Origin: an uncultured Ruminococcus sp.
GTDB lineage: Bacteria > Bacillota > Clostridia > Oscillospirales > CAG-272
Direction: 5' to 3'
Assembly: GCA_964629225.1 (NCBI GenBank)
Contig: CAZVQC010000006.1
Span: forward strand, 1-50,623
DNA: 50,623 nt
Made by a program: the position numbers and the translations under genes. Of this stretch, positions 7,986 through 40,700 are shown piece by piece (within the stretch, counting starts at the first letter, position 1; each line of letters begins with the position of its first letter). A model generated the notes under the pieces. The model searched no databases. It was not told the origin of the DNA and saw only the letters and a list, made by a program, of their open reading frames with translations.

Positions 7986-8015
7986 GACAGTCGGTATTTG
8001 ACGGAGGAACGGACA

Positions 8016-15818: not shown

Positions 15819-15903
15819 TGGTGCGGACGAAGGGATTTGAACCCTAACACCGAAAGGTACCGGATCCTAAATCCGGCGCGTCTGCCAGTTCCGCCACGTC
15901 CGC
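15819..15903 (-). tRNA. tRNA-Leu (anticodon TAG)
   Basis: 85 nt. GCGGACG/CGTCCGC acceptor stem; anticodon stem-loop CCGGA-TTTAGGA-TCCGG; long variable arm; GGTTCAAATCC T-loop; encoded CCA. Confidence 0.85.
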
Positions 15904-17938: not shown

Positions 17939-19264
17939 TTACTTGACGTTCTTGAACTGCTCCCAAAGCTCGTCTGCCAGTTTATCGGCGCTTTCGCCGT
18001 TATTATAGCGCTCCGGCATGGTCTTCTGTTCTTCCCTGAGCGAGTCGTACAGTGAGTAGATCCTGTTGTAATAGCCTACGAAGGAAGGCTCACGGACGGC
18101 GGTCGCCCTGTCGTTCACTTCGGCTATGGCATTGTAGAGATTCTTATAGGACTTCGACACGAAACCGTGATCTCCGATCTTGTCGAAGGACGCCTTGTTT
18201 GACGGCATATATCCCGTTTCAATGCAGAATTCAAGGTTTCTTTCCGCCTCGGTGAGCCAACGGGCAAATACCTCGGCGGCCTCTGCCTTTTGGTCGGTGG
18301 TCTTGTAGGCGCAGAGACCCACGCCCGCCTGAGTTACAAGCAGGTCGGTGCCCTCAGCCGCAGGAGGCGGCATTATTTGAAGATCCATAGGCTCGGTGGT
18401 GTTGTCCGGATAGGTCACCGTGTCGTTGTAGTAGAGTATGGATGCGGTGGAGCCCAGTCCCGCCATGACTTCGCCGGTCATCACCTGCGTGTTGGAATAG
18501 AGGTCGGAAACGATGATATGTCCCTTGGCGATGGCGGTGGCAAACTTCATGAAGGATGCCTTGAAAGCCTCGTTTTCAAAGTCGTACCAGCCCTCGGCGG
18601 TGTAGAAGTCGTCATGACCCTGCTCCATGGCGTTCAGCTCAATGGCACGGATGGGAAAATCCAGGGCGCAGAAGGGCTTGCCGTCTGAGTACTCATAGTA
18701 TTTTTCTGCGGCATCGAGGAAGCCATCCCAAGTGGAAAGGCTGTCATAGGTGACTCCGGTGGCAGCGGAGAAACGTTCAAATTGAGTTCCCGCAACGAAG
18801 AGAAGATGAGTGGATTTCGAAACGGGGAATACGGACAGATGCCCGTCCACCATACCGTCCTCTAAAAATTCCGGTACATAGTTATCAAGCTCCTCGTCGG
18901 TGAAGACGTCCTTCCAATCCAAAAGGTTCTCCGCTCCGAGCTCTGCGGCATTGTTGTTGTGGCAAAAGAACAGGTCGGGCATCTCCATGGCGCCTGCCTC
19001 TCCTTTGTGTGCGGAGAGGAGCTTTTCCCCGATCTGTGCCGAGGAGGACATGGAGGATACGTTGATTATGATACCTTGCTCTTTGCCTACCGTGCGGTTA
19101 AATTCCTCCACAAGTCTGTTCATGGGGGAATCTGCCTGCTCACCGTACACGTGCCACATGGTGAGGGTAACGGGTTCCTTCGGGTCAAGAAGGGTCTTTT
19201 GACATCCGCAGAAGACGAGCGCCGTCATAAAGGCTGTCAAGATGATCGCAATGATCTTTTTCAT
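17939..19264 (-). CDS. extracellular solute-binding lipoprotein (ABC family-1 sugar SBP), orphan
   Basis: 441 aa with signal peptide and lipobox (LVFC-GC). No permease or ATPase genes adjacent. Its stop is 15 nt upstream of the LuxR-type gene on the same strand. Confidence 0.75.
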   Translation of the reverse strand: MKKIIAIILTAFMTALVFCGCQKTLLDPKEPVTLTMWHVYGEQADSPMNRLVEEFNRTVGKEQGIIINVSSMSSSAQIGEKLLSAHKGEAGAMEMPDLFFCHNNNAAELGAENLLDWKDVFTDEELDNYVPEFLEDGMVDGHLSVFPVSKSTHLLFVAGTQFERFSAATGVTYDSLSTWDGFLDAAEKYYEYSDGKPFCALDFPIRAIELNAMEQGHDDFYTAEGWYDFENEAFKASFMKFATAIAKGHIIVSDLYSNTQVMTGEVMAGLGSTASILYYNDTVTYPDNTTEPMDLQIMPPPAAEGTDLLVTQAGVGLCAYKTTDQKAEAAEVFARWLTEAERNLEFCIETGYMPSNKASFDKIGDHGFVSKSYKNLYNAIAEVNDRATAVREPSFVGYYNRIYSLYDSLREEQKTMPERYNNGESADKLADELWEQFKNVK

Positions 19265-19356
19265 GGGAAACCTTCTGAGTTATCGTACTGTTGCGAAAAC
19301 AGCAATGAATTGGGTGCCGAAATACGAAAAACACGAATAAATCGAATTTTTTTCAT

Positions 19357-19394
19357 TTTGTCCCCCCAAAACAGCGGTTTTTGAGGGGGACAAA
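19357..19394. promoter_or_regulatory. 10-bp inverted repeat in a divergent promoter region
   Basis: TTTGTCCCCC-N17-GGGGGACAAA. The right arm overlaps a weak -35 (GGGACA) spaced 17 nt from TATAAT at ~19410-19415. Confidence 0.4.
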
Positions 19395-19643
19395 CAAACA
19401 ATATATCCGTATAATATAGTTGCAAGAGTCTCAAAGGAGGATACAGGCTCTTCTTTGTCTCAAGATAAACAGAGGTATCCTCGGTCGGGGAAGATCCCCG
19501 ACAACGGCTTCACCTGCACGTCAATGAAGTGCGAAGCACGCCTTTATTTATTATTTTATCATAATTCTATTCGCAAGTCAAGTAAAACAAGCCGCAGTCC
19601 CGGTACTGCGGATACGGAAATATTTCCGAGAGGAGGAGAGAGC

Positions 19644-20012
19644 ATGGCAGAGCACACAACTGCCGATTACAGAACGGTTGCAGACAGCGGCGGCACAAGA
19701 TACCGATTCTACTGTCAGGTGTCGGGAGCGTTTGCCTGCGCAACGAAGCCCTATCCCGGAGAGGATGCCGAGGCGGAACTTCGGGATGCATGGGAGAGCG
19801 AGGGCAAAAACCACTTCAACCTTTGTCACCGATGCGGAAGGTGGGTGGTGGATGCGGTGTACAACCCGGAGGTGTTCGAGTGTACCGACTGCGCCACCTT
19901 TGAGCATGAGACGAGGTATTGCAAGTCCTGCGGCAAAAGGGTGGATGCGGATGTGCGATTTTGCCCGTTCTGCAAGAGCAGGCTCCATTACGAAGGGGGT
20001 GAGGCATTATGA
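19644..20012 (+). CDS. small zinc-ribbon protein
   Basis: 122 aa with ATG after GAGAGGAGGAGAG. Carries cysteine pairs CHRCG...CTDC and CKSCG...CPFC. Confidence 0.6.
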   Translation: MAEHTTADYRTVADSGGTRYRFYCQVSGAFACATKPYPGEDAEAELRDAWESEGKNHFNLCHRCGRWVVDAVYNPEVFECTDCATFEHETRYCKSCGKRVDADVRFCPFCKSRLHYEGGEAL

Positions 20013-20305
20013 CGGTGAAGGCCAAGTGGGAACAGCTTGAAAGATACGGCTTCGGCCCCAACGTGATGAAGCGTACCAGGGTGTGCCCGTCCTGCGGAAG
20101 GATGGTGACGAACACCTGCAGCTCCTGCCCCGATTGCGGAATGCGCCTTATGAAAAAGACCCTGTGGGACAGGTACAGAGAGCGGCATATGTGCTGTGAC
20201 AGATGCGGCACGGTGCTGGCGGTGGATTCAAGATACTGCCCCCATTGCGGAAGAGCACTCTACGTGAAAAAGGCTCTTCGCTCCGAAAAGAAAAGCAATG
20301 CGTAA
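20009..20305 (+). CDS. small double-zinc-ribbon protein
   Basis: 98 aa with ATGA overlap onto the previous gene. Two CxxC..CxxC ribbons (CPSCG..CSSCPDCG; CDRCG..CPHCG). Confidence 0.6.
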   Translation: MTVKAKWEQLERYGFGPNVMKRTRVCPSCGRMVTNTCSSCPDCGMRLMKKTLWDRYRERHMCCDRCGTVLAVDSRYCPHCGRALYVKKALRSEKKSNA

Positions 20306-20339
20306 CGAATCGAAGAACGATCTGAAGGAGGATCAAAGA

Positions 20340-23300
20340 ATGAAGACCAAGAGACCCCTGAGAGCAGTCAGTTTCATTCTCACCCTTATCATGCTGGTGG
20401 GAATGCTTCCTCTGTCCGCCATCTCATCCATGGCGGCGATACCGGCAGTGGACAGCTCCGTATGGACACTTGTGGGAACGGACAGTAAAGCGTCTAATGC
20501 GGCGCGCTACACCGAGCTTAAAGACGCTCTTGAGAATACCGCCGTTTCTCTGATCAATACGGCGTATGTCCGCCTTGAAAGAGATATCAAATTGGATGCG
20601 GACCTGTCGAAGAGCAGTTGTGTCTTTACAGAGGACTCGATCACTATAGTGGTCACCCGAAAAGTCGTGTTTGACTTGAACGGACACACCTTAAAGGCTA
20701 AAGTCTACGACGGAACCGGAGAGTATCTCGATCCCGTTTCACTGACCATGTTTGAGATCAGAGACGGTGGAAAGCTCACGATAGTTGACAGCAAGGGCAA
20801 GGGCAAGATAGCTACCGACAGCTGGATCTCGGAGCCCCACGTGGACCTGGGTGCCGCCGGTGACATCAATGTCTTTGATATGTTCAAGATAAAAGGAGGC
20901 GGAGAGCTCATTATCAACGCTTCCGGCGCCGAGTTTGAATGCGGTCGCTCAAAGCAGCAGTGGGTAACACGTGCATACACGGTCGATAGAGAACCTGGTG
21001 GCGTTCCCGATGCATCCGACTTTTTTACGGGAAATATTCGCGGTCAGGCCTGCGGCTCCGTTTTTATCGCAGAGTCCAACAGTAAGATCACCGTTGCCGG
21101 AGGAAAGTTTCTTGCAAGGGGATACAGAGGTGTCTATCACCGAGGCTACGGCGATCCTTGTGCGGTCTTTGATGTAAGTGCAAATACTGTCGTCGACATC
21201 ATTGACGGTACATTCTACGGTAAGGGCTGCGCCGACGTGTTCGATGCGGATAAAACTGCCAAGATCACGATTCGTTCGGGTGTGTTCGACGTTTTCAAGG
21301 TAGATAAGGTTCCCGTTTTAAATTACCCGTACCATGAAGACCTTCTCAGCTATTACAGGTACACCCGCTTTACAAACGGCAGATACGGCGAGGTCGGCAT
21401 CCCCGACAGCGCCCTTGATCCGGACAACACCGATATCATAATCGGCGGACACAATTACAGCGAGGACGAGGATAAGGATAATTCCGCAAGCGATACTCAC
21501 AAGACCGTTACGGTAAAACCGAAGACGGGCGCCAAGACTCCCGACGATAGGATCATTGTGGAAAATGAAAACGGAATCGGTGCCTGGAACGGCAGCGACT
21601 CCTACGTTATCAATGCAAAGAACGGCAGAGCCTATTTCTCCGACAGCGACAGAGCGTACCTTGACGACGACCTTCAAAAGGATACGACAGGTTACTTCCT
21701 TTGGACCTTCACTCTGTACGATGCCAAAACGGGTGAAAAATGCGATGCGGAGCCGATGCAGGTGGCAAGTCTCGGTTCCGATGACACGATATCCATCGAT
21801 CTGAAGGACTATAAACAGACAAATACCACTACCTTCAAGTACTATTTCGAAAATGACGGGATCAGCAGTTACAAAATAAAGGCAGAGGTGGAAGAGGTCT
21901 GGGCAGGCCACCATACATACAAACCGAAGTTCCATAACTGGTTCTATTTCAACGAGTACCGGTCTTTTCTCGGTATCGACGCCAACGAGGCGGCGGAGAT
22001 ACTTGACTTCACCGTGACACCGAGAACGCCGAGCTCCGATTGCACATCCTACACCCTCAACACGGAAAACGAAGAGGGGATGGAGTATTATTTCGAATTC
22101 TTGGGAAATAATTCCAAAGGCGCTGTGACCTGTAACAGCTATTATCGCTACTGCAAGGTGGACACGGCGGGAAAAACGGTGCTGTCTTCGAAGCAGGAGA
22201 TAGCGACCGGCACGGAATACGGTGAACCCATTGAATTTATTGTCCCCCCGAAGCATGGCGGTCCCGTGTACGTTACGGTGGAATACGTATTCAGAAGAAG
22301 CATCAACTCTTCAGCTGCGGTAGACGTTGTGACCATAACCAAGACACATCTTGCCTATGCACTTGACTTCATGACATACGATGTCCTCGCAGCGGATGAG
22401 GCAATAAGAACGGGCCGTGTCTCCGCTTCCTACGGTAATTACGATACGGTGGAGCTTTATGATGGCGAGACTGTCCTCATAAAGCCCAACATCAGCGCCG
22501 ATATGGCAAAAACGGACGTGATCAACCCGATAACGGGCAAGACCTTCTCCAAGAGCGATATCAAGTGGCAGCTCTCCACCGGACTTGACGATTACGGCAA
22601 TCACGTTTGGAATGATGTTCCCGCTCGTGAGATAGTCAATCAGGAGATCGACGGCGTAACTCTCCCATGTGTTAAGACCAACAGAACGGCGTGGTACAGA
22701 ATGAGTTACGTTTGGAACGGCGAGACTTACCATTCGCCTCAGTCGCTTCTTGTGAAGGGCGTTTCCTACGAAAAGAACCGCATTGCCACCGTGATCCGAA
22801 GCGACAGATTCACCGGTATATACGGCAAGGGCGAAAACAAATTGTATCTTGACGTCAATAAGGATGCCGACTGGAACACCGGAGGCTGCTCCGTGGACTC
22901 CATACGTATCTTCCTGATGGAAAAGCCCGATGGAGCGAACCCCGGCAGTACGATGAAGACACCGAGTAGCTTCGCGACCGGTCAAAACGGTCTGATCGAG
23001 CTTATCAATACCGACAGCTTCTTCGAAAATGAGGCGGGCGCCGTAACGGGTATGTACACCTTCCGTGTCAGGGTTACGGGTACCAATGCCGACGGCTCCA
23101 CGTACTACGTTACTGCGAACTGTGACGTCTGGTACAGTCAACAGACCACCGACTTAAATATCTACGTGAACGGCATGCCGATCTACAAGCATGATGAGAT
23201 CAACATTCCATGTATCCTGACGGCGGATACCAATCTGTTCGACTTCACCTGCGACTATTATCCGCTGAACACCATGGGCAACGGCATTGACAAAAGTTCT

Positions 23301-25979
23301 GTCAAATGGACGTCCTCCGACAGCGGTGTGCTTCGTATCGACGAGAAGACGGGTGAAGGATTGGCCCTCAGACCCGGAACCGTAACGGTCAGGTGCTCGT
23401 GGAAGGATTCCGACGGAGCATCTCACTCAAGATCTGCGAAGGTCAGCGTTCCCATAGCCGGATTTGAGCTTAACAAGATCGACTATGCAAGCTACGTCGG
23501 CAGCAACCTTCCTTACATTTCGGGAGAAATTGCCACCGTTAAATCCGTATGGTCCTGCGGCGGTGAGAAGGTGACCGTAGATCCCGGTCGTTATATCGGG
23601 GTAAGACTCACAAGCTACAACGGCTGGGGCGAGGCCTCCACAGCCTTCGGTGAAGCAGTCGTGGAATATAACAACAACGCCTCCTACGGCTACACTGTGA
23701 CTGCGAAGGCGGACGACGGTTACTTCTTCGCAGCAGAGGCCGAGGCGGACGTTTTTGAGACCGAATACTACGTGGACAAGGCACAGCTTCGGTGCAACGG
23801 TCTTGACGACGGAGCGATACTGCCGGCGGAGGACTACGACGCTTACACCGAGTGGAACACTCCCTACACCGTGGAGATCGATTACGTAAACAAGACGTAC
23901 AACGAGTACTACAAGGGCGGAATGTACGTAAGACTGTCCCACGTTCCCGTGATTGAGGATCCGGGTGCGGTCTATCTCAAAGAGGTCAATGTTACGGTAA
24001 GCGAGCCCGCAGTGGGTGACAACCGCTATGAGGGCACCACCTACAACCCGATGAATGAGTATCTGGTACTGAACGTCAGCGGTATCCTCGGAAACTGCAA
24101 GGACTCTTCAACTCACAGCTACGTTTCAAAGCTTGATATGAGCGATATAAGGGGCACCGGAAAAGCCTATGACGATGCCTCCTCCGAAGAAAAGGGCGCA
24201 CTTACCATCGAGTACATGAGCGTGTGGAATACCACCGACTACGTGACATGGAACAAGCCCACCAAGACTTACGAAAACGGCATCTACGTTCACGACGTGG
24301 GTCTCTGCTTTGACAGTGACGCCATGGCGGGCATGAATGTCTTCGTGGCAAAGGATGCCAAGATATTCGTAAACGGCAGAGAAATGGATTTTGCCTCCGT
24401 ATACTACGGCTCCGACGGTACGAGCAGCGTAAACTTCAAATACTACTTTGACGTGGGCGAGGTGGAGACCGTCTCCGTCGTAAGTGTGACCGGCATCAAT
24501 GCTCCCCTTCAGGGAGAGCTTCCCTCGGATGTGGGGGATGCTACAGTTCTCGTGGGCGGTGTGGAGAGCGACTCTGTCTACATTTCCAAACTCATATGGT
24601 TCGTGGATGCCAACGGCAACGGAGCCTATGATGAGGGTGAGGAGGCGCAAGCTCGCTACTACGGTTTCAACGGCTCATATCGTGGGGACAGCACTCTTTG
24701 GTATGACGGCAGATTTTTGGCAGGTGTTTCTTATAGCCTGTGCGTTGAGCTTCAGGCAGACGGTGTCCGTCTTGACTCGAATGTTGTCGTATCCTTCAGC
24801 GGTCTTGAAAAGAACTTGATCGGCAAGATGAGTGGGGTATTCACATTCCCCGCAGACAATATTATACGCACAGTTACGATCGATGCTTTGACAACGGACA
24901 GTGCAGCGGGCAAGTTCCTTGACCCGTTTATGCTTACCTTTAGCGGTAAGACATCGGGATTCTCCCTCAACTGGACATACAATGAATTTACCGAGTGCGA
25001 CGATCCTACGGCAAGTGTCGGCGAATTTATCGGGGATGTTATCACCTACAGTTACGATGATATCAAGCTCCCCGGAGGCAAAACATGGCTTCGTGCTATG
25101 ATAATGCCGGAGGACGGTTTTCAGATCAGCAATAACTTCAAGTTCCTTGTAAACGGGACCGATGCTTGCGAAGAGTTCGCACCGGGCAGAAGCAATATTG
25201 AGACCTGCGTTAATTCGGGCGGAATCTACATGAGTTGTTATATGTTCACGGTACCCAAGACCGGTGCGGACGTTACCGTCAACGTGACGGGAGCATCCGG
25301 CGGCAAGGTGAATGCACAAAAGACGGTACAGCTCATTGAGAGCGGTTACAGCGAGGCGGCATATGAGAGTGTGATCGCCGCCGACGGTACGAGTTGCGTT
25401 ATTTCGGGCGTTCCCGACGGCACGTACAAGGTGAAGGTGATGGCAGCGGGCTATGTTACCGCCGAGACTACGGTGACGATCAACGGCTCCGATGCCACCG
25501 TGAACGTGACTTTGAGGACCGTTTCCACAACCGCAGCGGTGAAGGGAACTGTCTACAGCAAGGGCAGTGCCGCGGATCCGGTCACTCTGAGACTCACCTT
25601 GGTGGGCAAAAGTGAGCCGTCATACGAGGTGGTAGTTACCGGAAACAAGGCTTCCTACTCCATCGGAAACGTTGAGAACGGCACCTACGTTCTCACCGCA
25701 ACCAAGAACGGTCACTCGGACTACAGTATCATGGTAACCGTGGACGGTACGGACCTGACACAGAACATCACCCTGTCACTTCCCGGCAGCCTTATGGGAG
25801 ACGTGGACGGAGACGGCAGGATAACCAACAAGGACCTGCTCCTCATGAGACGTTACCTCCTTATGGTAGTGGGAGAGAGTGAGACCTTCTGTTTTGACAA
25901 TGCAGACCTTGACTACGACGGCAGGATAACCAACAAAGACCTTCTCAAGCTCCGCAAGATAATAATGGGAGTTGAGTAA
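20340..25979 (+). CDS. giant secreted dockerin-bearing protein (beta-helix-like N-region, two carboxypeptidase-regulatory-like domains, type-I dockerin)
   Basis: 1879 aa from the ATG after GAAGGAGGA. Signal peptide MKTKRPLRAVSFILTLIMLVGMLPLSA. C-terminal duplicated Ca-binding dockerin repeats GDVDGDGRITNKDLLLMRRYLL / DLDYDGRITNKDLLKLRKII. Confidence 0.85.
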   Translation: MKTKRPLRAVSFILTLIMLVGMLPLSAISSMAAIPAVDSSVWTLVGTDSKASNAARYTELKDALENTAVSLINTAYVRLERDIKLDADLSKSSCVFTEDSITIVVTRKVVFDLNGHTLKAKVYDGTGEYLDPVSLTMFEIRDGGKLTIVDSKGKGKIATDSWISEPHVDLGAAGDINVFDMFKIKGGGELIINASGAEFECGRSKQQWVTRAYTVDREPGGVPDASDFFTGNIRGQACGSVFIAESNSKITVAGGKFLARGYRGVYHRGYGDPCAVFDVSANTVVDIIDGTFYGKGCADVFDADKTAKITIRSGVFDVFKVDKVPVLNYPYHEDLLSYYRYTRFTNGRYGEVGIPDSALDPDNTDIIIGGHNYSEDEDKDNSASDTHKTVTVKPKTGAKTPDDRIIVENENGIGAWNGSDSYVINAKNGRAYFSDSDRAYLDDDLQKDTTGYFLWTFTLYDAKTGEKCDAEPMQVASLGSDDTISIDLKDYKQTNTTTFKYYFENDGISSYKIKAEVEEVWAGHHTYKPKFHNWFYFNEYRSFLGIDANEAAEILDFTVTPRTPSSDCTSYTLNTENEEGMEYYFEFLGNNSKGAVTCNSYYRYCKVDTAGKTVLSSKQEIATGTEYGEPIEFIVPPKHGGPVYVTVEYVFRRSINSSAAVDVVTITKTHLAYALDFMTYDVLAADEAIRTGRVSASYGNYDTVELYDGETVLIKPNISADMAKTDVINPITGKTFSKSDIKWQLSTGLDDYGNHVWNDVPAREIVNQEIDGVTLPCVKTNRTAWYRMSYVWNGETYHSPQSLLVKGVSYEKNRIATVIRSDRFTGIYGKGENKLYLDVNKDADWNTGGCSVDSIRIFLMEKPDGANPGSTMKTPSSFATGQNGLIELINTDSFFENEAGAVTGMYTFRVRVTGTNADGSTYYVTANCDVWYSQQTTDLNIYVNGMPIYKHDEINIPCILTADTNLFDFTCDYYPLNTMGNGIDKSSVKWTSSDSGVLRIDEKTGEGLALRPGTVTVRCSWKDSDGASHSRSAKVSVPIAGFELNKIDYASYVGSNLPYISGEIATVKSVWSCGGEKVTVDPGRYIGVRLTSYNGWGEASTAFGEAVVEYNNNASYGYTVTAKADDGYFFAAEAEADVFETEYYVDKAQLRCNGLDDGAILPAEDYDAYTEWNTPYTVEIDYVNKTYNEYYKGGMYVRLSHVPVIEDPGAVYLKEVNVTVSEPAVGDNRYEGTTYNPMNEYLVLNVSGILGNCKDSSTHSYVSKLDMSDIRGTGKAYDDASSEEKGALTIEYMSVWNTTDYVTWNKPTKTYENGIYVHDVGLCFDSDAMAGMNVFVAKDAKIFVNGREMDFASVYYGSDGTSSVNFKYYFDVGEVETVSVVSVTGINAPLQGELPSDVGDATVLVGGVESDSVYISKLIWFVDANGNGAYDEGEEAQARYYGFNGSYRGDSTLWYDGRFLAGVSYSLCVELQADGVRLDSNVVVSFSGLEKNLIGKMSGVFTFPADNIIRTVTIDALTTDSAAGKFLDPFMLTFSGKTSGFSLNWTYNEFTECDDPTASVGEFIGDVITYSYDDIKLPGGKTWLRAMIMPEDGFQISNNFKFLVNGTDACEEFAPGRSNIETCVNSGGIYMSCYMFTVPKTGADVTVNVTGASGGKVNAQKTVQLIESGYSEAAYESVIAADGTSCVISGVPDGTYKVKVMAAGYVTAETTVTINGSDATVNVTLRTVSTTAAVKGTVYSKGSAADPVTLRLTLVGKSEPSYEVVVTGNKASYSIGNVENGTYVLTATKNGHSDYSIMVTVDGTDLTQNITLSLPGSLMGDVDGDGRITNKDLLLMRRYLLMVVGESETFCFDNADLDYDGRITNKDLLKLRKIIMGVE

Positions 25980-26054
25980 GTCGAAAGATCACCCGACATC
26001 AAATGATCCGAATCAAATGTCCCGACAGCCTTCGGGCTGTCGGGGGACGATCCG
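25249..26054 (+). repeat. 806-bp segment nucleotide-identical to 31162-31967
   Basis: Covers the last 242 codons, the stop, and the terminator hairpin CCCGACAGCC-ttcg-GGCTGTCGGG of both giant genes. ORF-track fragments 25394-25615 and 31307-31528 translate identically. Confidence 0.85.
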
Positions 26055-26276
26055 ATACATGGCACTGCGTTTTCCAAAGTGTCAAAGGAAGACCGCTGCC
26101 GTGATCCGGACGGAATGCCCTCTGTCGAAGGGACGGGGTGAGAGACCCGGCTCTTCAACGGGGCTTAGGCTTCGATATGCGTTTTGAAAATAATTCCCCG
26201 ACACGGTCTGCGTTTTGTGATATCGCTAACGGACGTGGGGATAAATAACAGTGAAACGGACAAGGAGGAACACAAA

Positions 26277-29200
26277 ATGAAAACAAAGAGACCGATACGG
26301 TTTGTCAGCATCCTTCTCACCTTAATAATGGTGATCGGTGTGCTGCCACTGTCGGCGCTCTCGACCCTTGCTGCCGGCATAAGTTATGCCGATGAGCCCA
26401 ACTGGGTCTTGGTAGGTACCGACAGCAGTGCGAGCGCCGAGGAGAATTTGAAGAGTCTTACGACCTTGCTGACGGACGAGAGCGGCTCCGGTGCCAACTA
26501 CACCGGCGACACTTTGTACGTCAGACTTGAAAAAGATATCGCAGTCGATTTCAAGAGAGTTGTCAACAGCTTTGCCTCGGAGACCAACGGAGGCAACATG
26601 AACATTGCGGTAGTCGGCAAGAAGGTGCTTGATCTTAACGGACACACCGTCAAGTCAAAAATGATGCTTGGCGACATCGACGACGAATGGTACGATCCCT
26701 ACAGAGGCACTTTTCTCCTCGTATACGGCGACCTTACCATAGTTGACTCCAAGGGCGGCGGCGAGATGAAGTCTGATATGCAGATACAAAATGTCCGTCC
26801 GGAGGAAGTCTACCACTACGACCTGTTCCACGTAATGGACGGAGGAGAGCTGACCGTCAATGCGCCCGGCTCGAAATTCACAAGCGGTCGCTCGCAGGAA
26901 TACTATGATGACAGCGACTACCATATCAGAAATCACTGGTACCGCAGTCAGTCAAACGGCTCCCCGGTCGACGTTCACTCCGGCGGTAAGCTGACCGTTG
27001 CGGGAGGAACTTTCAACGGCAGAGGATACTCCTTTGACAGACGTAAGCATGACTATACAAGATTTGACTGTGCGGCTATTCTTGCGGAGAAAAACTCCAC
27101 GGTCTATATCATCGACGGTAACTTCTACGGCAGAGGCGGAGCCGATGCGCTGAACATATCGAACGATGCGGACATAACGGTAGAGTCCGGTGTTTTCGAC
27201 GTTTTCAAGGTGGACCGTCTTGCCGAAATGAAACACGACGCAGGCACGATGAATATAGTCGACGGTTGGTACGGAGACGTGGGTCTTCCCGAAAGAGTGA
27301 AAACTCAGCTTGCCCTCAAGGGCTCCGCTGTGGAGATAGTAAAGAACGGTCACGATGTTACGGGTGACGAGCTTAGCGACAGCAGCCTTGTCACGGACCG
27401 AAGCACTGCAAAGATCACCGTCCGTCCCACGGGCGGAAGCAACAATTTGGACAGCCGTGTGAGCATCGTCTCCGATAACGGTGTTTCCAGTATCAATCCC
27501 AATACCGTCAGCGGATCGGACACTTACGTGGTGAACGCCGAGTATAAGAACCCCTATTTCTCAAGGACGGCGGCGGAATTCTCCGAGTCAAACTACCGTC
27601 CTCGGAACAAGGATATCGGCAAAAACAGCGATGAATACTACCTGACATGGACCTTCACTCTTCGCGATACGGACGGCTCCAAGGTCGCCGATCTTGCCAA
27701 GGTCACGACAGTGGGAACTCAGACCTCCGTCAGCGTGGACCTTATTGCGGAATACGGCGCCTCAAAGTGGAGAAATCTGAGTACCGGCGACTATAAGATC
27801 CGTTTGGAGATCACCGAGTGCTGGAAGGGTGATCACACCTACAAGAGCACCTGGAGAAACGAGATGGGACTCAACCTCAGTGACAATTCACTGCTCACCT
27901 ATCTCTCCGGCATTACGGACTTCAAGTTTGACTTCAACGTAGTACATAACAAGGATCTCTACTACGGCGATACCCAGTATCTGTCATTTGAACTTGACTA
28001 CTACACGGTGAATGACCTTAACGAGATCAGAGATTCCTACAACAACTACTACGGCGGTTTCAGTATCATGGTCTCATATACCGTCGAATCCTACGATCCG
28101 AAGGGCAACAACTACGTGACAAATACGGATCCGAAGCCCATAGCAAGCACGATAACCGCCGCTGTTAACGACGGTGCGGGCCCGAAGGTCATAACAGCCA
28201 ATATATACATTCCGAGATTCGACGATTCCACCCGCAAGATAGTGGGATACGACGTTCTTACCACGAGAAAGAATTTCCTGCTTCTGCCGACGATGAGCAA
28301 GTGCCTTGACAGCGATGCGGAGACCGTGGGATTCCATAAGCCCGTATCATTGACACATACCGACAGTTACGTGAAGGTCGATACCGCAGAGGACGTCTGG
28401 GGTGCGCCTTTGGCAGACAGCGGTACGTTCTCATGGCAGTGGTATTCCGTCTACGACCACGATATCGGTGCGGACGTGGATATCCACGGCGACTCCTCCC
28501 CCTACAGCAAGTACACCATAGCGGCGGAAGGCAACAGTTACAAGATATCGAGGGACGGAACGTACCGTCTTGCATTCAGCTACGTTCCGAACAACGGCGG
28601 TGTTCCGGAGGAGTTCGTATCGGTGCCCATCGATATCTATGCCTCCAACAGTCAGGAACTTAAGATAGCGACCCTCAGCGGCAGCGAGACCGTACGTCCC
28701 ACGTTGGACGAACTCGGAAGATCGCCTTTGAGACTTGACCTCGGAGAGGGAAGCTGGGGTACGGTCGAATCGGTTACTCTTTCAATAAAGGGACGTCCCA
28801 CACAGGTGGCACATTCTTCACCCATTGAAGGCTCGTACTGCTTCTCAGCCGCAGCAAGGGAGGGCTACTACCTTTTCTACCTGAATGATTTTCCGAGCAT
28901 ACAGGACGCTATTGCCGACGGATGTGCAGGCGGTGAATACACGTTCCGTGCCACGATTCAGGGTAAAGACATCTACGGCTACAAATATAAAACATCTTCA
29001 AACGATCTCACGGTAACGTTCGAGCAAGAGGCGGAGGGCTACGGCCTTATCGTCAACGGAGAGTACCTCGGCAGAGGATGGTCGACTGAAGAGGAAGCAA
29101 AGGCACAGGTCATCCCCCTCTTCATCAACAGTAAGAGCCCCGAAATTACTTTACAGGTGGCATATTATCCCGAAAGTGCCACATTCGATCCCAATAACAG

Positions 29201-31892
29201 TTACACTTCATATTCCTGGTACGATTCCGGTTGTCCTTTCCTCAAAAGGGTCAGCGGAGGCAATACCGATACGTATCAAATGACCATATTAAGGCCCGGT
29301 GTCGGTATTATGAGTGTATATCACGTCGGTGAGTGGATATACTATAAGATCTGTGTTCCCGTCACGGAGATTCAGCTTACAATGCCGAACTATCAGAACT
29401 ACATAGGAACGGAATATTCCGCTATCAAACCCGTAAACGTGAGCCTTGTAGCGGAATGCGGCAAAAGGACGTCCGAGTCAGGCTCTTATGCAAGCGTTTT
29501 GCTCCAGGATGGTTATGAGCCGTATTTCTGGGAAAACGGAACGAATTACGTCAGCGGCAAGAAGGTCGCCGCAAACGATCTTGGCGTTATCAATTATCAA
29601 TTGCACCTTCCCGAATGGCAGTGCTTCCCGGTCGAGGAAGTGAGAGAAGGCAGATACATGGTGGATCTCGGCAGAGTCGCCGTCACAGTCATCCGCAGCG
29701 ACGGCACGAGCGAGACCTTGTCCGCCGAAGCGAGAAATGCATACATGAACTGGGATAAGGATTTCTGTTGCAGTGACGATTCTTACAATGATTCCACTAC
29801 TTACATGGGATTCAAGATAACCGAGGACGTGTTCGTAAAGGAAGAGAGCGCAACTTACATCGACCTTGTCACCATTAATACCACCGAGCCGGGCGTGGGC
29901 GACCCCATCAACGAGGGTATCAAGATCTACAGAGATGACGGCTTTGAGTGGACTCAGCTCGGCTATACCTGCAAGGCGGGTGACGTTTCGACGCTTACGG
30001 ACGTCAAGACCGAGAAAGGCAAGGATATAATATTCGTCTATTCAAGTACAGTCAGCAAAGCCACCGTCGAAACAGCGGGTGAGCACTACACAAATGCAAG
30101 CGGGGCTAAAGCCGAGAGCGGAAAGTCCTGGGCGTACAGCTCATTTTTGAACGGCACGTATGAAAACGGAACGTATTTCCACGAGCTTTCACTGAGTACG
30201 AACAAGGACCTCGGCACCGACGGCAAGAAATATTACTTTGCTCCCGATGTGAAAGTAGTACTGAACGGCCATATCCTTGATTTTGAGAACCTTGTACGGT
30301 ACGATGCGAGAAATGGCACAAGCTCCATCGGTCTGGACTATTTCTTTGATGTAGGCGACGTCATTACCGTTTCCGAGATCGATATTGACGGCATAGTACC
30401 CTATCAGGGGGATCTGCCCGCCACAGCCGATGATGCAACGCTTTTCGCAAAGTATTATGACGGAACGGAGGACAGCGGCAAGGTTGAGATCCGCTCCATT
30501 GAGTGGTTCGTAGATGCCAACAACAACAGCGTATTCGACGACGGAGAGGGTGTCAAAGCGAGGTTCTGGGGCGACGGCACTTACAAGCCGGAGGACAGCA
30601 CTCTCTGGTGGGACGGAACATTCCTTCCCGGCGTTGAATACAGCGCTAAGGTACAATTCGGAAGCAGTGCGGCAGCCCTCAGGTTTGCATCCGACCTTGC
30701 GGTGGACTGCGGAGGAGGCGAACCCGTATTTGATACGGCAACGTCATTCACGGTCAAATTCGCAGGTGACTTCACAATAAGAAAAGTATCCATTAAGACC
30801 GCCGAGGGTGCAGACGCGGCATACCCATCCGGCCGTGACCCGTTGGCACTTGCAAATGCAAGCGTGGCATACAACATAATAAGCATCGGTGTCTTTAAGC
30901 AGCAAGACAATCCGGACGTTGCAGCGGATTCCAACGTCCACGCCTTCTACGCACCGGAAGGAAATCACATTTCCGATACTTTGACCGGCGGCAAGTATTT
31001 CTACGAGTTCTCCATCTCTTGGAAGGATACCGACTACGTACTTGACAGCGAGGCAACGGTTCTTGTCAACGGCAAGGATTACGGCGAGGTATTCGCTCCG
31101 AACAGAAACGAGATAATCGTTGAAAGATCCAAGTATTCGCTGTACTGCTACTACTGCTTCTCGGTACCCAAGACCGGTGCGGACGTTACCGTCAACGTGA
31201 CGGGAGCATCCGGCGGCAAGGTGAATGCACAAAAGACGGTACAGCTCATTGAGAGCGGTTACAGCGAGGCGGCATATGAGAGTGTGATCGCCGCCGACGG
31301 TACGAGTTGCGTTATTTCGGGCGTTCCCGACGGCACGTACAAGGTGAAGGTGATGGCAGCGGGCTATGTTACCGCCGAGACTACGGTGACGATCAACGGC
31401 TCCGATGCCACCGTGAACGTGACTTTGAGGACCGTTTCCACAACCGCAGCGGTGAAGGGAACTGTCTACAGCAAGGGCAGTGCCGCGGATCCGGTCACTC
31501 TGAGACTCACCTTGGTGGGCAAAAGTGAGCCGTCATACGAGGTGGTAGTTACCGGAAACAAGGCTTCCTACTCCATCGGAAACGTTGAGAACGGCACCTA
31601 CGTTCTCACCGCAACCAAGAACGGTCACTCGGACTACAGTATCATGGTAACCGTGGACGGTACGGACCTGACACAGAACATCACCCTGTCACTTCCCGGC
31701 AGCCTTATGGGAGACGTGGACGGAGACGGCAGGATAACCAACAAGGACCTGCTCCTCATGAGACGTTACCTCCTTATGGTAGTGGGAGAGAGTGAGACCT
31801 TCTGTTTTGACAATGCAGACCTTGACTACGACGGCAGGATAACCAACAAAGACCTTCTCAAGCTCCGCAAGATAATAATGGGAGTTGAGTAA
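26277..31892 (+). CDS. giant secreted dockerin-bearing protein, tandem paralog of 20340-25979
   Basis: 1871 aa from the ATG after AAGGAGGA. Signal peptide MKTKRPIRFVSILLTLIMVIGVLPLSA. Shares motifs with the upstream gene across its full length (W.LVGTDS, YVRLE.DI, DLNGHT.K.K, LTIVDSKG, SGVFDVFKVD, IEWFVDAN). The C-terminal 242 aa are identical. Confidence 0.85.
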   Translation: MKTKRPIRFVSILLTLIMVIGVLPLSALSTLAAGISYADEPNWVLVGTDSSASAEENLKSLTTLLTDESGSGANYTGDTLYVRLEKDIAVDFKRVVNSFASETNGGNMNIAVVGKKVLDLNGHTVKSKMMLGDIDDEWYDPYRGTFLLVYGDLTIVDSKGGGEMKSDMQIQNVRPEEVYHYDLFHVMDGGELTVNAPGSKFTSGRSQEYYDDSDYHIRNHWYRSQSNGSPVDVHSGGKLTVAGGTFNGRGYSFDRRKHDYTRFDCAAILAEKNSTVYIIDGNFYGRGGADALNISNDADITVESGVFDVFKVDRLAEMKHDAGTMNIVDGWYGDVGLPERVKTQLALKGSAVEIVKNGHDVTGDELSDSSLVTDRSTAKITVRPTGGSNNLDSRVSIVSDNGVSSINPNTVSGSDTYVVNAEYKNPYFSRTAAEFSESNYRPRNKDIGKNSDEYYLTWTFTLRDTDGSKVADLAKVTTVGTQTSVSVDLIAEYGASKWRNLSTGDYKIRLEITECWKGDHTYKSTWRNEMGLNLSDNSLLTYLSGITDFKFDFNVVHNKDLYYGDTQYLSFELDYYTVNDLNEIRDSYNNYYGGFSIMVSYTVESYDPKGNNYVTNTDPKPIASTITAAVNDGAGPKVITANIYIPRFDDSTRKIVGYDVLTTRKNFLLLPTMSKCLDSDAETVGFHKPVSLTHTDSYVKVDTAEDVWGAPLADSGTFSWQWYSVYDHDIGADVDIHGDSSPYSKYTIAAEGNSYKISRDGTYRLAFSYVPNNGGVPEEFVSVPIDIYASNSQELKIATLSGSETVRPTLDELGRSPLRLDLGEGSWGTVESVTLSIKGRPTQVAHSSPIEGSYCFSAAAREGYYLFYLNDFPSIQDAIADGCAGGEYTFRATIQGKDIYGYKYKTSSNDLTVTFEQEAEGYGLIVNGEYLGRGWSTEEEAKAQVIPLFINSKSPEITLQVAYYPESATFDPNNSYTSYSWYDSGCPFLKRVSGGNTDTYQMTILRPGVGIMSVYHVGEWIYYKICVPVTEIQLTMPNYQNYIGTEYSAIKPVNVSLVAECGKRTSESGSYASVLLQDGYEPYFWENGTNYVSGKKVAANDLGVINYQLHLPEWQCFPVEEVREGRYMVDLGRVAVTVIRSDGTSETLSAEARNAYMNWDKDFCCSDDSYNDSTTYMGFKITEDVFVKEESATYIDLVTINTTEPGVGDPINEGIKIYRDDGFEWTQLGYTCKAGDVSTLTDVKTEKGKDIIFVYSSTVSKATVETAGEHYTNASGAKAESGKSWAYSSFLNGTYENGTYFHELSLSTNKDLGTDGKKYYFAPDVKVVLNGHILDFENLVRYDARNGTSSIGLDYFFDVGDVITVSEIDIDGIVPYQGDLPATADDATLFAKYYDGTEDSGKVEIRSIEWFVDANNNSVFDDGEGVKARFWGDGTYKPEDSTLWWDGTFLPGVEYSAKVQFGSSAAALRFASDLAVDCGGGEPVFDTATSFTVKFAGDFTIRKVSIKTAEGADAAYPSGRDPLALANASVAYNIISIGVFKQQDNPDVAADSNVHAFYAPEGNHISDTLTGGKYFYEFSISWKDTDYVLDSEATVLVNGKDYGEVFAPNRNEIIVERSKYSLYCYYCFSVPKTGADVTVNVTGASGGKVNAQKTVQLIESGYSEAAYESVIAADGTSCVISGVPDGTYKVKVMAAGYVTAETTVTINGSDATVNVTLRTVSTTAAVKGTVYSKGSAADPVTLRLTLVGKSEPSYEVVVTGNKASYSIGNVENGTYVLTATKNGHSDYSIMVTVDGTDLTQNITLSLPGSLMGDVDGDGRITNKDLLLMRRYLLMVVGESETFCFDNADLDYDGRITNKDLLKLRKIIMGVE

Positions 31893-31967
31893 GTCGAAAG
31901 ATCACCCGACATCAAATGATCCGAATCAAATGTCCCGACAGCCTTCGGGCTGTCGGGGGACGATCCG
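31162..31967 (+). repeat. second copy of the 806-bp identical segment
   Basis: See 25249-26054. Confidence 0.85.
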
Positions 31968-32170
31968 GAATAACTCGGTGAAATGCCGACTACGTTATTC
32001 GGAATAACTCGGTGCAATTAGTTCCGTATCATCCGTGGCGGCTTTCTGAGAGCCGGATACGGCAGTGGAAGTCGGATAGTGTTCACGGGAAAAATATTTT
32101 AATGAAGAAAAAAAGAATTAATTATCATTTTTTCGAAAGAGACTTCAAAAACGGAAGGAGAAGTGATATA

Positions 32171-33088
32171 ATGAAGAAAAGGTATTTTGCCCTTCTTGCC
32201 GTGGCTGTTTTGATGGCGGCTCTGCTCCTTTGCGGATGTGCTTTCGGGAACGGCGACAAAGACGGTATCGGCACCGACGGAGGATCACCATCGACGGAGC
32301 CGGAGGACGTATCCGCCGATGTGGATACGCCGGAAGATGCGCCCGAAGCGGATCCTTCGGAACTTCTTTCGCTGAGGCGGAGGATAGCGGACAGCGGCTC
32401 CTTTGTGGGCATCGCCTATGCGGGCAACGTTGAAAATAGAGACTACGTGGACAATGCCGCATCCTATCTTGAAGGCAGGGTGCTTTTGGAAAAGTATCCT
32501 TTCCTTTCCGACGTGAAGTTCTTCGATAACAAAGGCGAGAACATTTTCGTTCTCGTTCCGAAGAGCGAGAGCGGCAGGATAACTCTCTATTCCGCAGGTA
32601 TTGACGGGGACGGGGAGCTTTCGGTGGACCGTGATACGGAGATCTTTACCGGCGAGCCGGGGGAGGTACTGGTACTCAGGTGCAATGAAAGTGAGAATTT
32701 CTCCAACGTTCTCGTTCGCGTTACCGACGGAGATACCATTCTTGAATTTTATCCCACAGTCTCTCTTGAGGACGGACGCTCGGTGGATCTTCAAAGCGGG
32801 TGCTGCGATCTTACCGAGGACGATATCGGATTTCATGTGGACGAAGGGTATTATCTTATCGGCCTCGTCTACCCAAACGAGGTGAACGTGGAAGGTGAGG
32901 AGCTTTTGTTCCTCGGCGTTGAGGAATTCTGTAACGAGAGGATGCTGGCATACGGACTTGGTTCCGTAGGTGACAGCGGAGAATTTGAAACGGTGAGGCG
33001 GTTCATGGTATCCTACGGAGGCACTTATATGCTGAAGGATAGGGAGTGGACGGTGGTTGAGACCGGCATCTCGGATCTCGAAGAATGA
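32171..33088 (+). CDS. lipoprotein of unknown function
   Basis: 305 aa from the ATG after GGAAGGAGAAG. Signal peptide with lipobox (LLLC-GC), then an acidic Asp/Glu/Pro-rich linker. Confidence 0.55.
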   Translation: MKKRYFALLAVAVLMAALLLCGCAFGNGDKDGIGTDGGSPSTEPEDVSADVDTPEDAPEADPSELLSLRRRIADSGSFVGIAYAGNVENRDYVDNAASYLEGRVLLEKYPFLSDVKFFDNKGENIFVLVPKSESGRITLYSAGIDGDGELSVDRDTEIFTGEPGEVLVLRCNESENFSNVLVRVTDGDTILEFYPTVSLEDGRSVDLQSGCCDLTEDDIGFHVDEGYYLIGLVYPNEVNVEGEELLFLGVEEFCNERMLAYGLGSVGDSGEFETVRRFMVSYGGTYMLKDREWTVVETGISDLEE

Positions 33089-40402: not shown

Positions 40403-40700
40403 TCTGTTTTTGAGATAGTTTTTTTCGGGGAGGGCTTTTTCCCAAAAAGCCCTCCCCGACTCCTTCCCAAAAAAACTTGGGGGTGTTTTTTATTGGGGAG
40501 GACTTTTTTGAAAAAAGTCCTCCCCAATCCCCTCCCAAAAAAACTTTTGGGAAGGCTTTGGCGGAGGGAACGAGCATTCGGGAAGAGGGATCTGTGCGGC
40601 GTCCCCGCTTCATCGTTTTGTAAGGTTCTGTCTCCCGGCGGGCAAAGCGGGCATAGATCGCTTTGCGGCGCCGGGGGCGGTGGACGTCACCTTTTTGACA
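40403..40700. repeat. composite intergenic repeat: two ~65-bp palindromic hairpin units plus a truncated copy of the ~155-bp repeat
   Basis: Hairpins GGGAGGGCTTTTTCCCAAAAAGCCCTCCCC and GGGGAGGACTTTTTTGAAAAAAGTCCTCCCC, each followed by CCCAAAAAAACTTTGGG. Positions 40568-40690 are homologous to 3161-3285 and 44050-44170. Confidence 0.55.

What the first reader, a model, noticed from the sequence alone, without database searches (positions are those of the whole stretch)
25249..26054. 806 bp of perfect nucleotide identity joins the 3' ends of the two diverged giant paralogs (gene conversion)
Segments 25249-26054 and 31162-31967 are base-for-base identical. Each covers the last 242 codons (second CarboxypepD_reg domain plus dockerin), the stop, and the downstream hairpin terminator. 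Immediately 5' of this segment the genes are only distantly similar. That mosaic pattern indicates recent gene conversion or segmental replacement, not simple duplication. The identical block is also a ready substrate for deletion or inversion between the paralogs. Such blocks often cause assembly collapse, so the copy structure deserves verification.
Basis: seen in the sequence. Interest (0 to 1): 0.6.

Follow-up and report, generated by a model that had tools for sequence, protein, structure and literature searches.

The report
Shared anchor cassette on tandem paralogs
Two neighbouring giant surface-protein genes of a gut-type Clostridia bacterium carry exactly the same 806-base tail although the rest of the genes has diverged beyond recognition at silent sites; this is an ordinary footprint of recent recombination between paralogs, and a sister strain has only one gene at this place, joined through the same tail.

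Summary
Window 25249-26054 and 31162-31967 are identical at all 806 positions, and identity drops to background within a few bases on both sides. The block is a direct repeat. It holds the last 242 codons of two tandem genes (g1 20340-25979, g2 26277-31892), the stop codon and 75 nt of 3' UTR with a GC-rich hairpin. Those codons encode two Ig-like PEGA/CarboxypepD_reg domains and a type I dockerin. Outside the block the genes are saturated at synonymous sites (pS 0.74, against 0 in the block).

Only recent recombination explains this: gene conversion in the broad sense, or replacement of the cassette. Neither selection nor a simple duplication does.

Three points are new:
- A sister-strain contig has one gene. 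A g1-like body runs through the block straight into the flank that lies downstream of g2 in the window.
- Three unrelated bodies join the block at the same nucleotide, and family members elsewhere carry other anchors at that junction.
- Neither edge of the block has flanking homology, so classical conversion cannot have created the junctions.

The repeats are direct, so inversion is not expected. The hairpin has no U-tract. The two-copy structure could not be checked with reads. This is a new instance of a known phenomenon, of modest interest.

The parts
25249..26054 (+). Block copy 1: 3' anchor cassette of g1 (242 codons, stop, 75-nt 3' UTR with hairpin)
   Evidence: 806/806 identical to 31162-31967, with sharp edges
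31162..31967 (+). Block copy 2: the same cassette at the 3' end of g2
   Evidence: It continues into the downstream flank that the sister contig L020 also has directly after its single block
20340..25979 (+). g1: 1879-aa secreted protein (signal peptide, pectin-lyase-fold beta-helix, long beta-rich body, 2 Ig-like domains, type I dockerin)
26277..31892 (+). g2: 1871-aa paralog; body 20-45% aa identical to g1 in most windows, and closest to P0020 of another species
   Evidence: Equals P0015
25251..25526 (+). Ig-like domain A of the block (PEGA / CarboxypepD_reg-like); second copy at 31164-31439
   Evidence: Pfam PEGA 37 bits. 34-36% identical to domain B, and at most 45% to any other anchor in the family
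25527..25793 (+). Ig-like domain B of the block (CarboxypepD_reg); second copy at 31440-31706
   Evidence: Pfam PF13620, best stretch aa 1748-1827 of the mechanical ORF that starts at 20298. Closest anchors are P0004 at 55% and P0020 at 50%
25794..25976 (+). Type I dockerin with two Ca-binding repeats (25799-25841 and 25904-25946); second copy at 31707-31889
   Evidence: Pfam PF00404, 37-38 bits against a cut-off of 22.9. Internal 43-nt repeat family D3
26021..26044 (+). GC-rich hairpin in the shared 3' UTR (second copy at 31934-31957); no U-tract on the + strand
   Evidence: 134-nt region, MFE -52.4 kcal/mol, z -4.7
26055..26276 (+). Unique 222-nt spacer between block copy 1 and the g2 start. 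It has no consensus sigma-70 promoter, no Rfam match and no homolog in any fetched locus. It holds the only three TGCGTTTTSNNA motifs of the window
24017..31161 (+). Segment that differs from the sister strain. In L020 it is replaced by about 1.3 kb of a third (P0004-like) body type that joins the block at the same nucleotide
   Evidence: first mismatch at 24017; 5 mismatches in 4.4 kb to its left
19387..19415 (+). Promoter-like site (GGGACA-17-TATAAT) behind a conserved hairpin; probable start of the Zn-ribbon/g1(/g2) transcription unit. 85% conserved upstream of the g2-type gene of L029
19455..20305 (+). Two small zinc-ribbon ORFs (19455-20012 as the mechanical ORF; 20009-20305 by transfer from the L020 gene call), syntenic upstream partners of the family gene
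32102..33088 (+). Downstream lipoprotein-like gene (internal signal peptide and lipobox, MKKRYFALLAVAVLMAALLLCGC, probably the true N-terminus), the conserved right end of the locus
   Evidence: 99.7% aa identical in L020, and 33-36% aa identity downstream of P0008 and P0004
16281..19264 (-). GerE/LuxR-type regulator (16281-17924) and SBP_bac_8 solute-binding protein (17939-19264), the conserved left end of the locus
   Evidence: Pfam. The same pair lies upstream of P0006, P0011 and P0021

Best explanation
The block is the shared 3' anchoring cassette of two tandem, co-oriented genes. Both encode giant secreted beta-helix proteins. The cassette consists of two Ig-like spacer domains, a type I dockerin, the stop codon and a 3' UTR with a hairpin.

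Its base-for-base identity, next to gene bodies that are saturated at silent sites, is the footprint of recent non-allelic homologous recombination. One copy has overwritten the other (gene conversion in the broad sense), or the cassette was recently placed on the second body and has not yet accumulated a difference.

In this protein family the anchor behaves as a portable constant module that is exchanged as a unit at one fixed junction. That junction is the domain boundary after the conserved ...Y-x-F-[T/S] motif.

Because the two copies are direct repeats 5.1 kb apart, they also act as homology arms. Through them the 5913-bp unit (spacer + g2 body + block) can be lost or gained, and different bodies can be swapped between strains. 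The sister strain shows the one-gene state.

Shown: the identity and its edges; the saturation of the bodies; the incongruent relationships of body and tail; the one-gene sister allele; the common junction in three bodies.

Inferred: that recombination rather than assembly produced the identity; the direction of transfer; whether the sister state is ancestral or derived.
For: - Exact 806-bp direct repeat with sharp edges.
- pS 0 in 242 codons plus 75 identical non-coding nt, against pS 0.74 (dS about 3) in 1504 body codons and 0.73 in the last 285.
- Incongruence of body and tail. The g2 body tracks P0020 (60-83% aa in windows), and nucleotide homology (74%) stops at 31168, the block edge. The g1 body tracks P0002/P0003. 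The tails are identical to each other and only 36-60% aa identical to any other anchor, over aligned domains or 100-column windows.
- An all-against-all HMMER search of 1.84 billion representatives finds no tail above 45% identity.
- Sister contig L020 has 5 mismatches in 4.4 kb up to 24016. A different body type follows (85-90% aa to P0004 over P0002 aa 1268-1609), then the block (3 synonymous differences), then directly the flank downstream of g2 (3 mismatches in 1.3 kb).
- g1, g2 and L020 join the block at the same nucleotide.
- Other family members carry other dockerins, a dockerin without an Ig domain, or SLH repeats at the same junction.
- No difference in 806 bp puts a 95% upper bound of about 0.0037 per site on the divergence between the copies. 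That is the order of the divergence between the two strains (0.001-0.004).
- Independent parallel: in the Ruminococcus MAG locus L018, three adjacent genes end in dockerins that are 89-95% identical at the nucleotide level. Two of them share 277 bp that include the stop, the 3' UTR and the terminator.
Against: - There is no sequence homology on either side of the block. A RecA-type conversion tract has nothing to start or resolve in beyond the block itself. Conversion can maintain the identity but does not explain how the cassette first came to sit on both bodies.
- Neither gene can be named as donor. The block is about equally distant from the anchors of the g1-type and g2-type relatives.
- The tandem pair was found in no other genome. 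One family gene per locus is the rule, so the pair may be a recent acquisition and not an old resident pair.
- The two-copy structure rests on one assembly whose reads I cannot see.
Confidence: 0.7

Rival explanations
1. Unit gain instead of conversion. The window lineage had one gene, as the sister strain has. It then acquired the 5913-bp unit (spacer + g2 body + block) from a related strain. This could happen by a single crossover of a circular intermediate within the block. It could also happen by a double crossover with the block as left arm and the downstream flank as right arm. In both cases the two blocks are identical because they are two halves of one recent recombination event.
For: One family gene at this syntenic locus is the norm, and the sister strain has one. 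g2-type genes occupy the same locus in other species (L029, L030). No near-identical g2 was found in any other assembly. The three block differences between window and sister all lie in the first 340 bp of the block, as expected if crossovers fall inside the block.
Against: This only moves the origin of the double block to a donor that already had it. If donor and recipient blocks differed as window and sister do (3 in 806), some difference between the two copies would be likely. The spacer has no homolog upstream of g2-type genes elsewhere, so no donor context is visible.
Confidence: 0.2
2. Assembly artefact. The contig contains a mis-join or a repeat consensus, for example alleles of two co-existing strains stitched in tandem through a shared tail. 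Alternatively the two copies are truly near-identical but were forced to one consensus.
For: An 806-bp exact repeat exceeds short-read length. The graph up-g1-R-spacer-g2-R-down has a single linear solution, which an assembler will output with one sequence for R. The same graph also fits a one-gene chromosome plus a circular or minority form. The only independent contig shows the one-gene path. The exact proteins are not on record in other assemblies.
Against: Both junctions that rest on this assembly alone are biologically sensible. The g2 reading frame runs in frame into the block at the family's conserved ...CYYCF-S|VP... boundary. The P0020 homology ends exactly there. The 222-nt spacer links the block end to a proper RBS and start of g2. 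A chimera of two alleles of the same locus would put the zinc-ribbon genes, not a unique spacer, upstream of g2. The block, its g1-type junction and its downstream junction are confirmed independently by L020 at 99.6% identity.
Confidence: 0.07
3. Programmed variation. The block is the constant arm of a dedicated cassette-switching or site-specific recombination system, comparable to a shufflon or to pilE/pilS, that alternates the expressed body.
For: Three different bodies are fused at the same nucleotide. The family is extremely mosaic. A tyrosine recombinase gene lies 5 kb upstream.
Against: Both genes are complete, each with its own RBS and signal peptide, so there is no silent cassette. 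The repeat is direct, with no inverted repeats (0 inverted pairs). The recombinase gene lies next to a tRNA gene and faces away from the locus, the typical arrangement of an integrated element. No short repeated att-like sites mark the block edges.
Confidence: 0.03
4. Purifying selection. Identical tails are kept because both proteins must dock to the same cohesin.
For: Dockerins within one organism must match that organism's cohesins (established knowledge of cellulosomes).
Against: Selection on the protein does not freeze synonymous sites (pS 0 against 0.74) or 75 nt of 3' UTR.
Confidence: 0.01

Closest known systems
Helicobacter pylori bab paralogs (babA/babB/babC)
   Same: Paralogous surface-protein genes with a variable ligand-facing middle and a C-terminal homologous region (>90% identity) that anchors the protein. 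Intragenomic homologous recombination (gene conversion) produces chimeras, and strains differ in which paralogs occupy the loci (PMC4552749).
   Different: The bab loci are dispersed, not tandem. They also share a 5' homology region, so both ends have homology arms. The anchor is an outer-membrane beta-barrel, not a dockerin. The genes here are 5.6 kb long and share no homology upstream of the block.
Concerted evolution of duplicated bacterial genes by gene conversion (for example tufA/tufB, rRNA operons)
   Same: Identity at silent sites between paralogs within one genome, with sharp edges where homology ends (my own knowledge of the field; not checked in the paper library).
   Different: In those cases the whole gene is homogenised. 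Here only the last 13% of each gene is, and the remainder is saturated.
Shared 'dockerin + stop + terminator' tails on adjacent genes in a Ruminococcus MAG (locus L018, JBGVLC010000024.1)
   Same: Neighbouring co-oriented genes end in near-identical dockerin modules. In two of them the identity runs through the stop codon and the terminator hairpin (277 bp at 95%).
   Different: The shared segment is shorter (dockerin only), 89-95% identical and not 100%, the proteins are unrelated, and the terminator has a proper T-run.
Modular dockerin-bearing (cellulosomal) proteins of Ruminococcus and Clostridia
   Same: The architecture: signal peptide, functional body, Ig-like spacer, C-terminal type I dockerin. 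'Ig + dockerin' tails are common (282 representatives below 1e-10).
   Different: The body is an uncharacterised 1,600-aa beta-helix-plus-beta-domain protein with no Pfam, NCBIfam or PDB sequence match. The tail has two Ig-like domains, whereas its relatives have one.

Membership tests
Gene conversion / concerted evolution between paralogs | A tract of near-identity bounded by much more divergent paralogous sequence | tested here: met
   806/806 identical, with flanks at background identity
Gene conversion / concerted evolution between paralogs | Homogenisation includes silent and non-coding positions | tested here: met
   pS 0 against 0.74; 75 nt of 3' UTR identical
Gene conversion / concerted evolution between paralogs | Phylogenetic incongruence: the tract groups by genome, the rest by ortholog | tested here: met
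   g2 body is closest to P0020 and g1 body to P0002/P0003, while the tails are identical to each other and 36-60% aa identical to all other anchors
Gene conversion / concerted evolution between paralogs | Homologous sequence flanking the tract in which a RecA-type event can start and resolve | tested here: not met
   No detectable homology 5' (47% nt identity, which is background) or 3' (spacer against downstream flank) of the block. Homology exists only inside the block, so conversion can maintain the shared junctions but cannot have created them
Gene conversion / concerted evolution between paralogs | Non-reciprocal transfer observed directly (donor unchanged, recipient overwritten) | not testable with these tools
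   This needs time series, strains or reads. The donor could not be assigned
Type I dockerin module | Match to the family profile above the curated threshold, with two Ca-binding repeat segments | tested here: met
   PF00404, 37-38 bits against a cut-off of 22.9. Duplicated 43-nt segment encoding D-x-D-G-D/Y-G-R-I-T-N-K-D-L-L
Type I dockerin module | A cognate cohesin or scaffoldin in the same genome | not tested
   Only 50.6 kb of the genome is available
Rho-independent (intrinsic) terminator | GC-rich hairpin | tested here: met
   10-bp stem, 8 G-C pairs, UUCG loop
Rho-independent (intrinsic) terminator | U-tract directly 3' of the hairpin on the transcribed strand | tested here: not met
   The + strand continues GGACGATCCG. 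The scan reports the site only for the - strand
Pectin-lyase-like right-handed beta-helix proteins (N-terminal domain of g1/g2) | The fold | tested here: met
Pectin-lyase-like right-handed beta-helix proteins (N-terminal domain of g1/g2) | Catalytic residues or activity of a specific lyase or hydrolase family | not tested
   No sequence-level match to any family. Enzyme or adhesin remains open
Cassette-type antigenic or phase variation (pilE/pilS, vlsE, shufflons) | Silent partial cassettes, or inverted repeats with a dedicated recombinase | tested here: not met
   Both genes are complete, with RBS and signal peptide. The repeat is direct, and no inverted pairs were found. The only recombinase gene sits next to a tRNA 5 kb away

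The most novel reading that the evidence does not exclude
The block is not merely a passive conversion tract. It may be the 'constant region' of a population-level exchange system. In that system an invariant anchor-plus-3'-UTR cassette on one side, and the conserved promoter/zinc-ribbon/signal-peptide region on the other, serve as homology arms. Through these arms 4-5 kb variable bodies of giant, dockerin-tethered beta-helix proteins are swapped, stacked in tandem or dropped between strains. This would give gut Clostridia rapid variation of a surface adhesin or enzyme. The same junction in three bodies, the strain polymorphism and the extreme mosaicism of the family fit this reading but do not require it.
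Probability: 0.15. Interest if true: 0.55.

Novelty: new member of a known kind. Interest (0 to 1): 0.3.

Why it matters
First, it is a practical warning. An 806-bp exact direct repeat inside two 5.6-kb genes will break or mis-resolve short-read assemblies. It also makes the number of genes at this locus strain-dependent; one gene and two genes are both seen.

Second, it is a clean example of how dockerin-tethered proteins evolve by modules. The anchor travels together with its stop codon and 3' hairpin as one cassette and is exchanged at a fixed domain boundary. The functional bodies diverge or are replaced.

Third, it flags an uncharacterised, highly mosaic family of giant beta-helix surface proteins at a conserved regulator-linked locus in gut or rumen Clostridia. 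That mosaic pattern resembles genes under diversifying pressure.

None of this changes current understanding of recombination.

Tried and rejected
- A block-only search in the word-indexed 5.8-billion protein set found nothing at E <= 1e-10 and missed even the window's own proteins. That negative is therefore unreliable and I did not use it.
- The scan of GTDB genomes with the block reached only generic dockerins at 29-46% identity.
- The metagenome scan with a wobble-tolerant block pattern gave 0 hits. The metagenome scan with the family alignment gave only relatives at 24-32% identity.
- Exact-sequence look-ups of g1, g2, P0001 and the downstream lipoprotein were not on record.
- Rfam found nothing in the spacer or in the upstream region of g1. 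A riboswitch such as c-di-GMP was considered and rejected.
- Plasmid, phage and viral-contig searches with block plus spacer gave no match, so a mobile-element origin is rejected.
- PDB sequence and NCBIfam searches of the bodies found nothing.
- The second giant gene in the P0011 loci (L024-27) was tested as a possible tandem paralog. It is unrelated.
- A self-comparison of all 54 fetched loci for other perfect long repeats found none. Short-read contigs would break at such repeats, so this says little.
- An attempt to name the donor gene from anchor similarity was inconclusive.
- The paper library holds nothing relevant on dockerins together with gene conversion or concerted evolution.
Full report
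OBSERVATION

Window 25249-26054 and 31162-31967 are identical at all 806 positions. The match cannot be extended by one base at either end. Ungapped identity in 50-nt windows drops from 1.00 to 0.2-0.4 directly outside. It is a direct repeat with a spacing of 5913 bp. The window has no inverted counterpart.

The block sits at the 3' ends of two tandem + strand genes. Gene g1 is 20340-25979 (1879 aa; RBS GAAGGAGG; identical to database protein P0001). Gene g2 is 26277-31892 (1871 aa; RBS AAGGAGG; identical to P0015).

The block begins at the second base of the codon that precedes the 242 shared codons. It contains two Ig-like domains (PEGA-like and CarboxypepD_reg), a type I dockerin, the stop codon and 75 nt of 3' UTR. 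The UTR carries a 10-bp GC-rich hairpin with a UUCG loop. The hairpin has no U-tract on the coding strand, so its role as a terminator is not established.

HOW DIFFERENT THE REST IS

A codon-aware alignment gives 11-60% amino-acid identity and about 25-45% third-position identity along the bodies, and 100% for both in the block. By Nei-Gojobori counting the bodies have pS 0.74 (dS about 3, saturated) and pN 0.49 over 1504 codons. The last 285 codons before the block have pS 0.73. The block has pS = pN = 0.

Selection on the protein cannot freeze silent sites and a 3' UTR. A simple duplication, recent or old, cannot give this mosaic. Recombination is required.

WHAT THE GENES ARE

Pfam recognises only the tail and one Ig-like segment. 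NCBIfam and a PDB sequence search find nothing for the bodies.

The proteins are therefore secreted, dockerin-tethered giant beta-helix proteins. Whether they are adhesins or glycan-active enzymes is open.

The locus is syntenic across relatives. A GerE/LuxR regulator and an SBP_bac_8 protein lie on the minus strand. Two small zinc-ribbon ORFs follow, then the giant gene, then a lipoprotein-like gene. Every related locus I could read holds one family gene. Only the window has two.

EVIDENCE FROM RELATED SEQUENCES

(a) Sister strain. Protein P0002 lies on a 7.8-kb Logan contig (L020, SRR22923215).
- Against the window, L020 has 5 mismatches in 4.4 kb from 19611 to 24016.
- It then becomes about 25% divergent and soon unalignable up to the block edge.
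- It then carries the block with 3 synonymous differences (window 25370, 25454, 25586, where both window copies share T and L020 has C).
- It then continues without a break into the flank that lies downstream of g2 in the window, with 3 mismatches in 1.3 kb.
The sister therefore has one gene. A g1-like 5' part is joined through the block to the downstream flank of g2. This is the single-copy form expected from recombination between the two blocks, or the state before the g2 unit was gained. It is not a plain deletion derivative, because its last 400 or so body residues are of a third type, 85-90% identical to P0004.

(b) Junction. g1, g2 and L020 enter the block at the same nucleotide (...TATATGTTCA|CGGTACCC...TACTGCTTCT|CGGTACCC...TATATGTTCA|CGGTACCC). 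This is the domain boundary after the family's conserved Y-x-F-[T/S] motif.

(c) Anchor swapping. At that junction, relatives carry one Ig domain plus various dockerins, a dockerin alone (P0021, P0022) or SLH repeats (P0005). P0002 and P0004 are 85-90% identical up to the junction and about 36-60% identical after it.

(d) Incongruence. The g2 body is closest to P0020 throughout (60-83% aa in windows). Nucleotide homology of 74% ends at 31168, the block edge. The block is only 36-60% aa identical to the anchors of P0020 and P0004, depending on the domain or window.

(e) A full HMMER pass over 1.84 billion representatives found many 'Ig + dockerin' tails but none above 45% identity. The block is thus specific to this lineage.

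(f) The family is strongly mosaic. The nearest neighbour of g1 changes along its length, and several g1-type proteins (P0007-10, P0013) carry a g2-type C-terminal body.

(g) Parallel case. In the Ruminococcus MAG locus L018, three adjacent genes end in dockerins that are 89-95% identical at the nucleotide level. Two of them share 277 bp that include the stop, the UTR and the terminator.

MECHANISM

The best-supported reading (confidence 0.7) is recent non-allelic homologous recombination acting on a portable anchor cassette. One copy overwrote the other, or the cassette was recently installed on the second body.

With no difference in 806 bp, the 95% upper bound on divergence between the copies is about 0.0037 per site. 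That is the order of the divergence between the two strains. The event is therefore recent on a strain-level time scale.

There is one important limit. Neither side of the block has flanking homology. RecA-type conversion can keep the copies identical, but it cannot have generated the two junctions. Those require either a module swap at the domain boundary, for which the family offers several precedents, or uninterrupted homogenisation since the original duplication.

As direct repeats, the copies predict deletion or tandem gain of the 5913-bp unit, not inversion. The block can also serve as a homology arm for allele exchange between strains. The three window-versus-sister differences lie in the first 340 bp of the block, which is compatible with a crossover inside it. 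Three sites are too few to make that a test.

RIVALS

- Gain of the whole [spacer + g2 body + block] unit through the block (0.2). It fits the rule of one gene per locus and the absence of g2 elsewhere, but it presupposes a donor that already has two blocks.
- Assembly artefact (0.07). Both junctions that rest on this assembly alone are in frame and fall at the family's natural boundary. The spacer leads to a proper RBS and start codon. L020 confirms the block, the g1-type junction and the downstream junction independently. Even so, an assembler would give both copies one consensus, and I cannot see the reads. It is my inference, not a test, that a Logan contig running unbranched through the block means a single copy in that sample.
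- A dedicated switching system (0.03). There are no silent cassettes and no inverted repeats. The only recombinase gene (14468-15514) sits beside a tRNA gene (15822-15903) and faces away from the locus.
- Selection alone (0.01). This is refuted by the silent-site identity.

COMPARISON WITH WHAT IS KNOWN

The closest analogue is the H. pylori bab family. It has a variable middle, a C-terminal homologous anchor region with more than 90% identity, chimeras made by intragenomic gene conversion, and locus occupancy that depends on the strain (PMC4552749). Concerted evolution of duplicated bacterial genes in general is well established (my own knowledge).

This case differs in several ways. The pair is tandem. 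Homology is confined to the 3' end. The anchor is a dockerin cassette that includes its 3' UTR. The bodies belong to an undescribed family. The paper library holds nothing that links dockerins with gene conversion or concerted evolution, but absence from the library is not evidence of novelty.

VERDICT

It is a new instance of a known kind of event, with modest interest (0.3). The most useful additions are the one-gene sister allele and the evidence that the anchor is exchanged as a unit at a fixed junction.

Noticed in passing
L018 (JBGVLC010000024.1, Ruminococcus sp. MAG) 3984-4260, 7126-7402, 8166-8363: Three consecutive + strand genes (975-4196, 4504-7338, 7455-8363) end in dockerins that are 89-95% identical at the nucleotide level. 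The first two also share the stop codon, the 3' UTR and a hairpin plus T-run terminator. This is an independent example of a 'dockerin + terminator' tail shared by neighbouring genes.
   Followed up: partly
window 26066-26077, 26178-26189, 26209-26220: The motif TGCGTTTTSNNA occurs three times in the window, all within the 222-nt spacer upstream of g2 (0.3 expected in the whole window, but the pattern was chosen post hoc). It may be a regulator-binding site. No consensus sigma-70 promoter was found in the spacer.
   Followed up: partly
window 19345-19418; L029 266-325: A hairpin (TTTGTCCCCCC...GGGGGGACAAA) followed by a promoter-like GGGACA-17-TATAAT lies upstream of the zinc-ribbon ORFs. It is 85% conserved upstream of the g2-type gene P0020 in another species that lacks the zinc-ribbon ORFs. 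It is probably the promoter region of the locus.
   Followed up: partly
window 20340-25248 and family proteins P0002-P0023: The family of giant proteins is highly mosaic. The nearest relative of g1 changes every few hundred residues (P0003, then P0008/10, then P0005/6, and so on). P0007-10 and P0013 combine a g1-type N-terminal part with a g2-type C-terminal body. The anchors vary between dockerin types, and P0005 has SLH repeats.
   Followed up: partly
window 14468-15514 (-) and 15822-15903 (-): A tyrosine recombinase (Phage_integrase family) gene lies directly next to a tRNA gene, the usual signature of an integrated element. Its 5' neighbours include a GH3 glycosidase and a MatE transporter. 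The ends of the element were not sought.
   Followed up: no
window 34260-34496: Three tandem 69-nt repeats (67-86% identical to the first copy), spaced 81-87 nt apart, encode zinc-ribbon units (W-x-C-S-C-G...KFCPECG). They lie at the C-terminus of an SPFH/Band_7 protein (33205-34617). Zinc-ribbon/DZR and DUF4428 genes cluster around this locus here and in L021.
   Followed up: no
window 40419-40551 and 43804-43868: Three copies of a 65-nt palindromic element (TTTTTTTCGGGGAGGGCTTTTT...AAAAAGCCCTCCCC...), two of them adjacent. They look like a small repeated terminator-like or REP-like element. One copy lies near the tRNA at 43639-43709.
   Followed up: no
window 50314-50386 and 50551-50623: A 73-nt direct repeat at 99% identity, spaced 237 nt, runs into the end of the window. 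It is probably a tandem-repeat protein domain that continues beyond the window.
   Followed up: no
tool behaviour: The word-indexed protein search with the 242-aa block as query did not return the window's own proteins P0001 and P0015, which contain it at 100%. Short-query negatives from that tool should not be trusted.
   Followed up: yes
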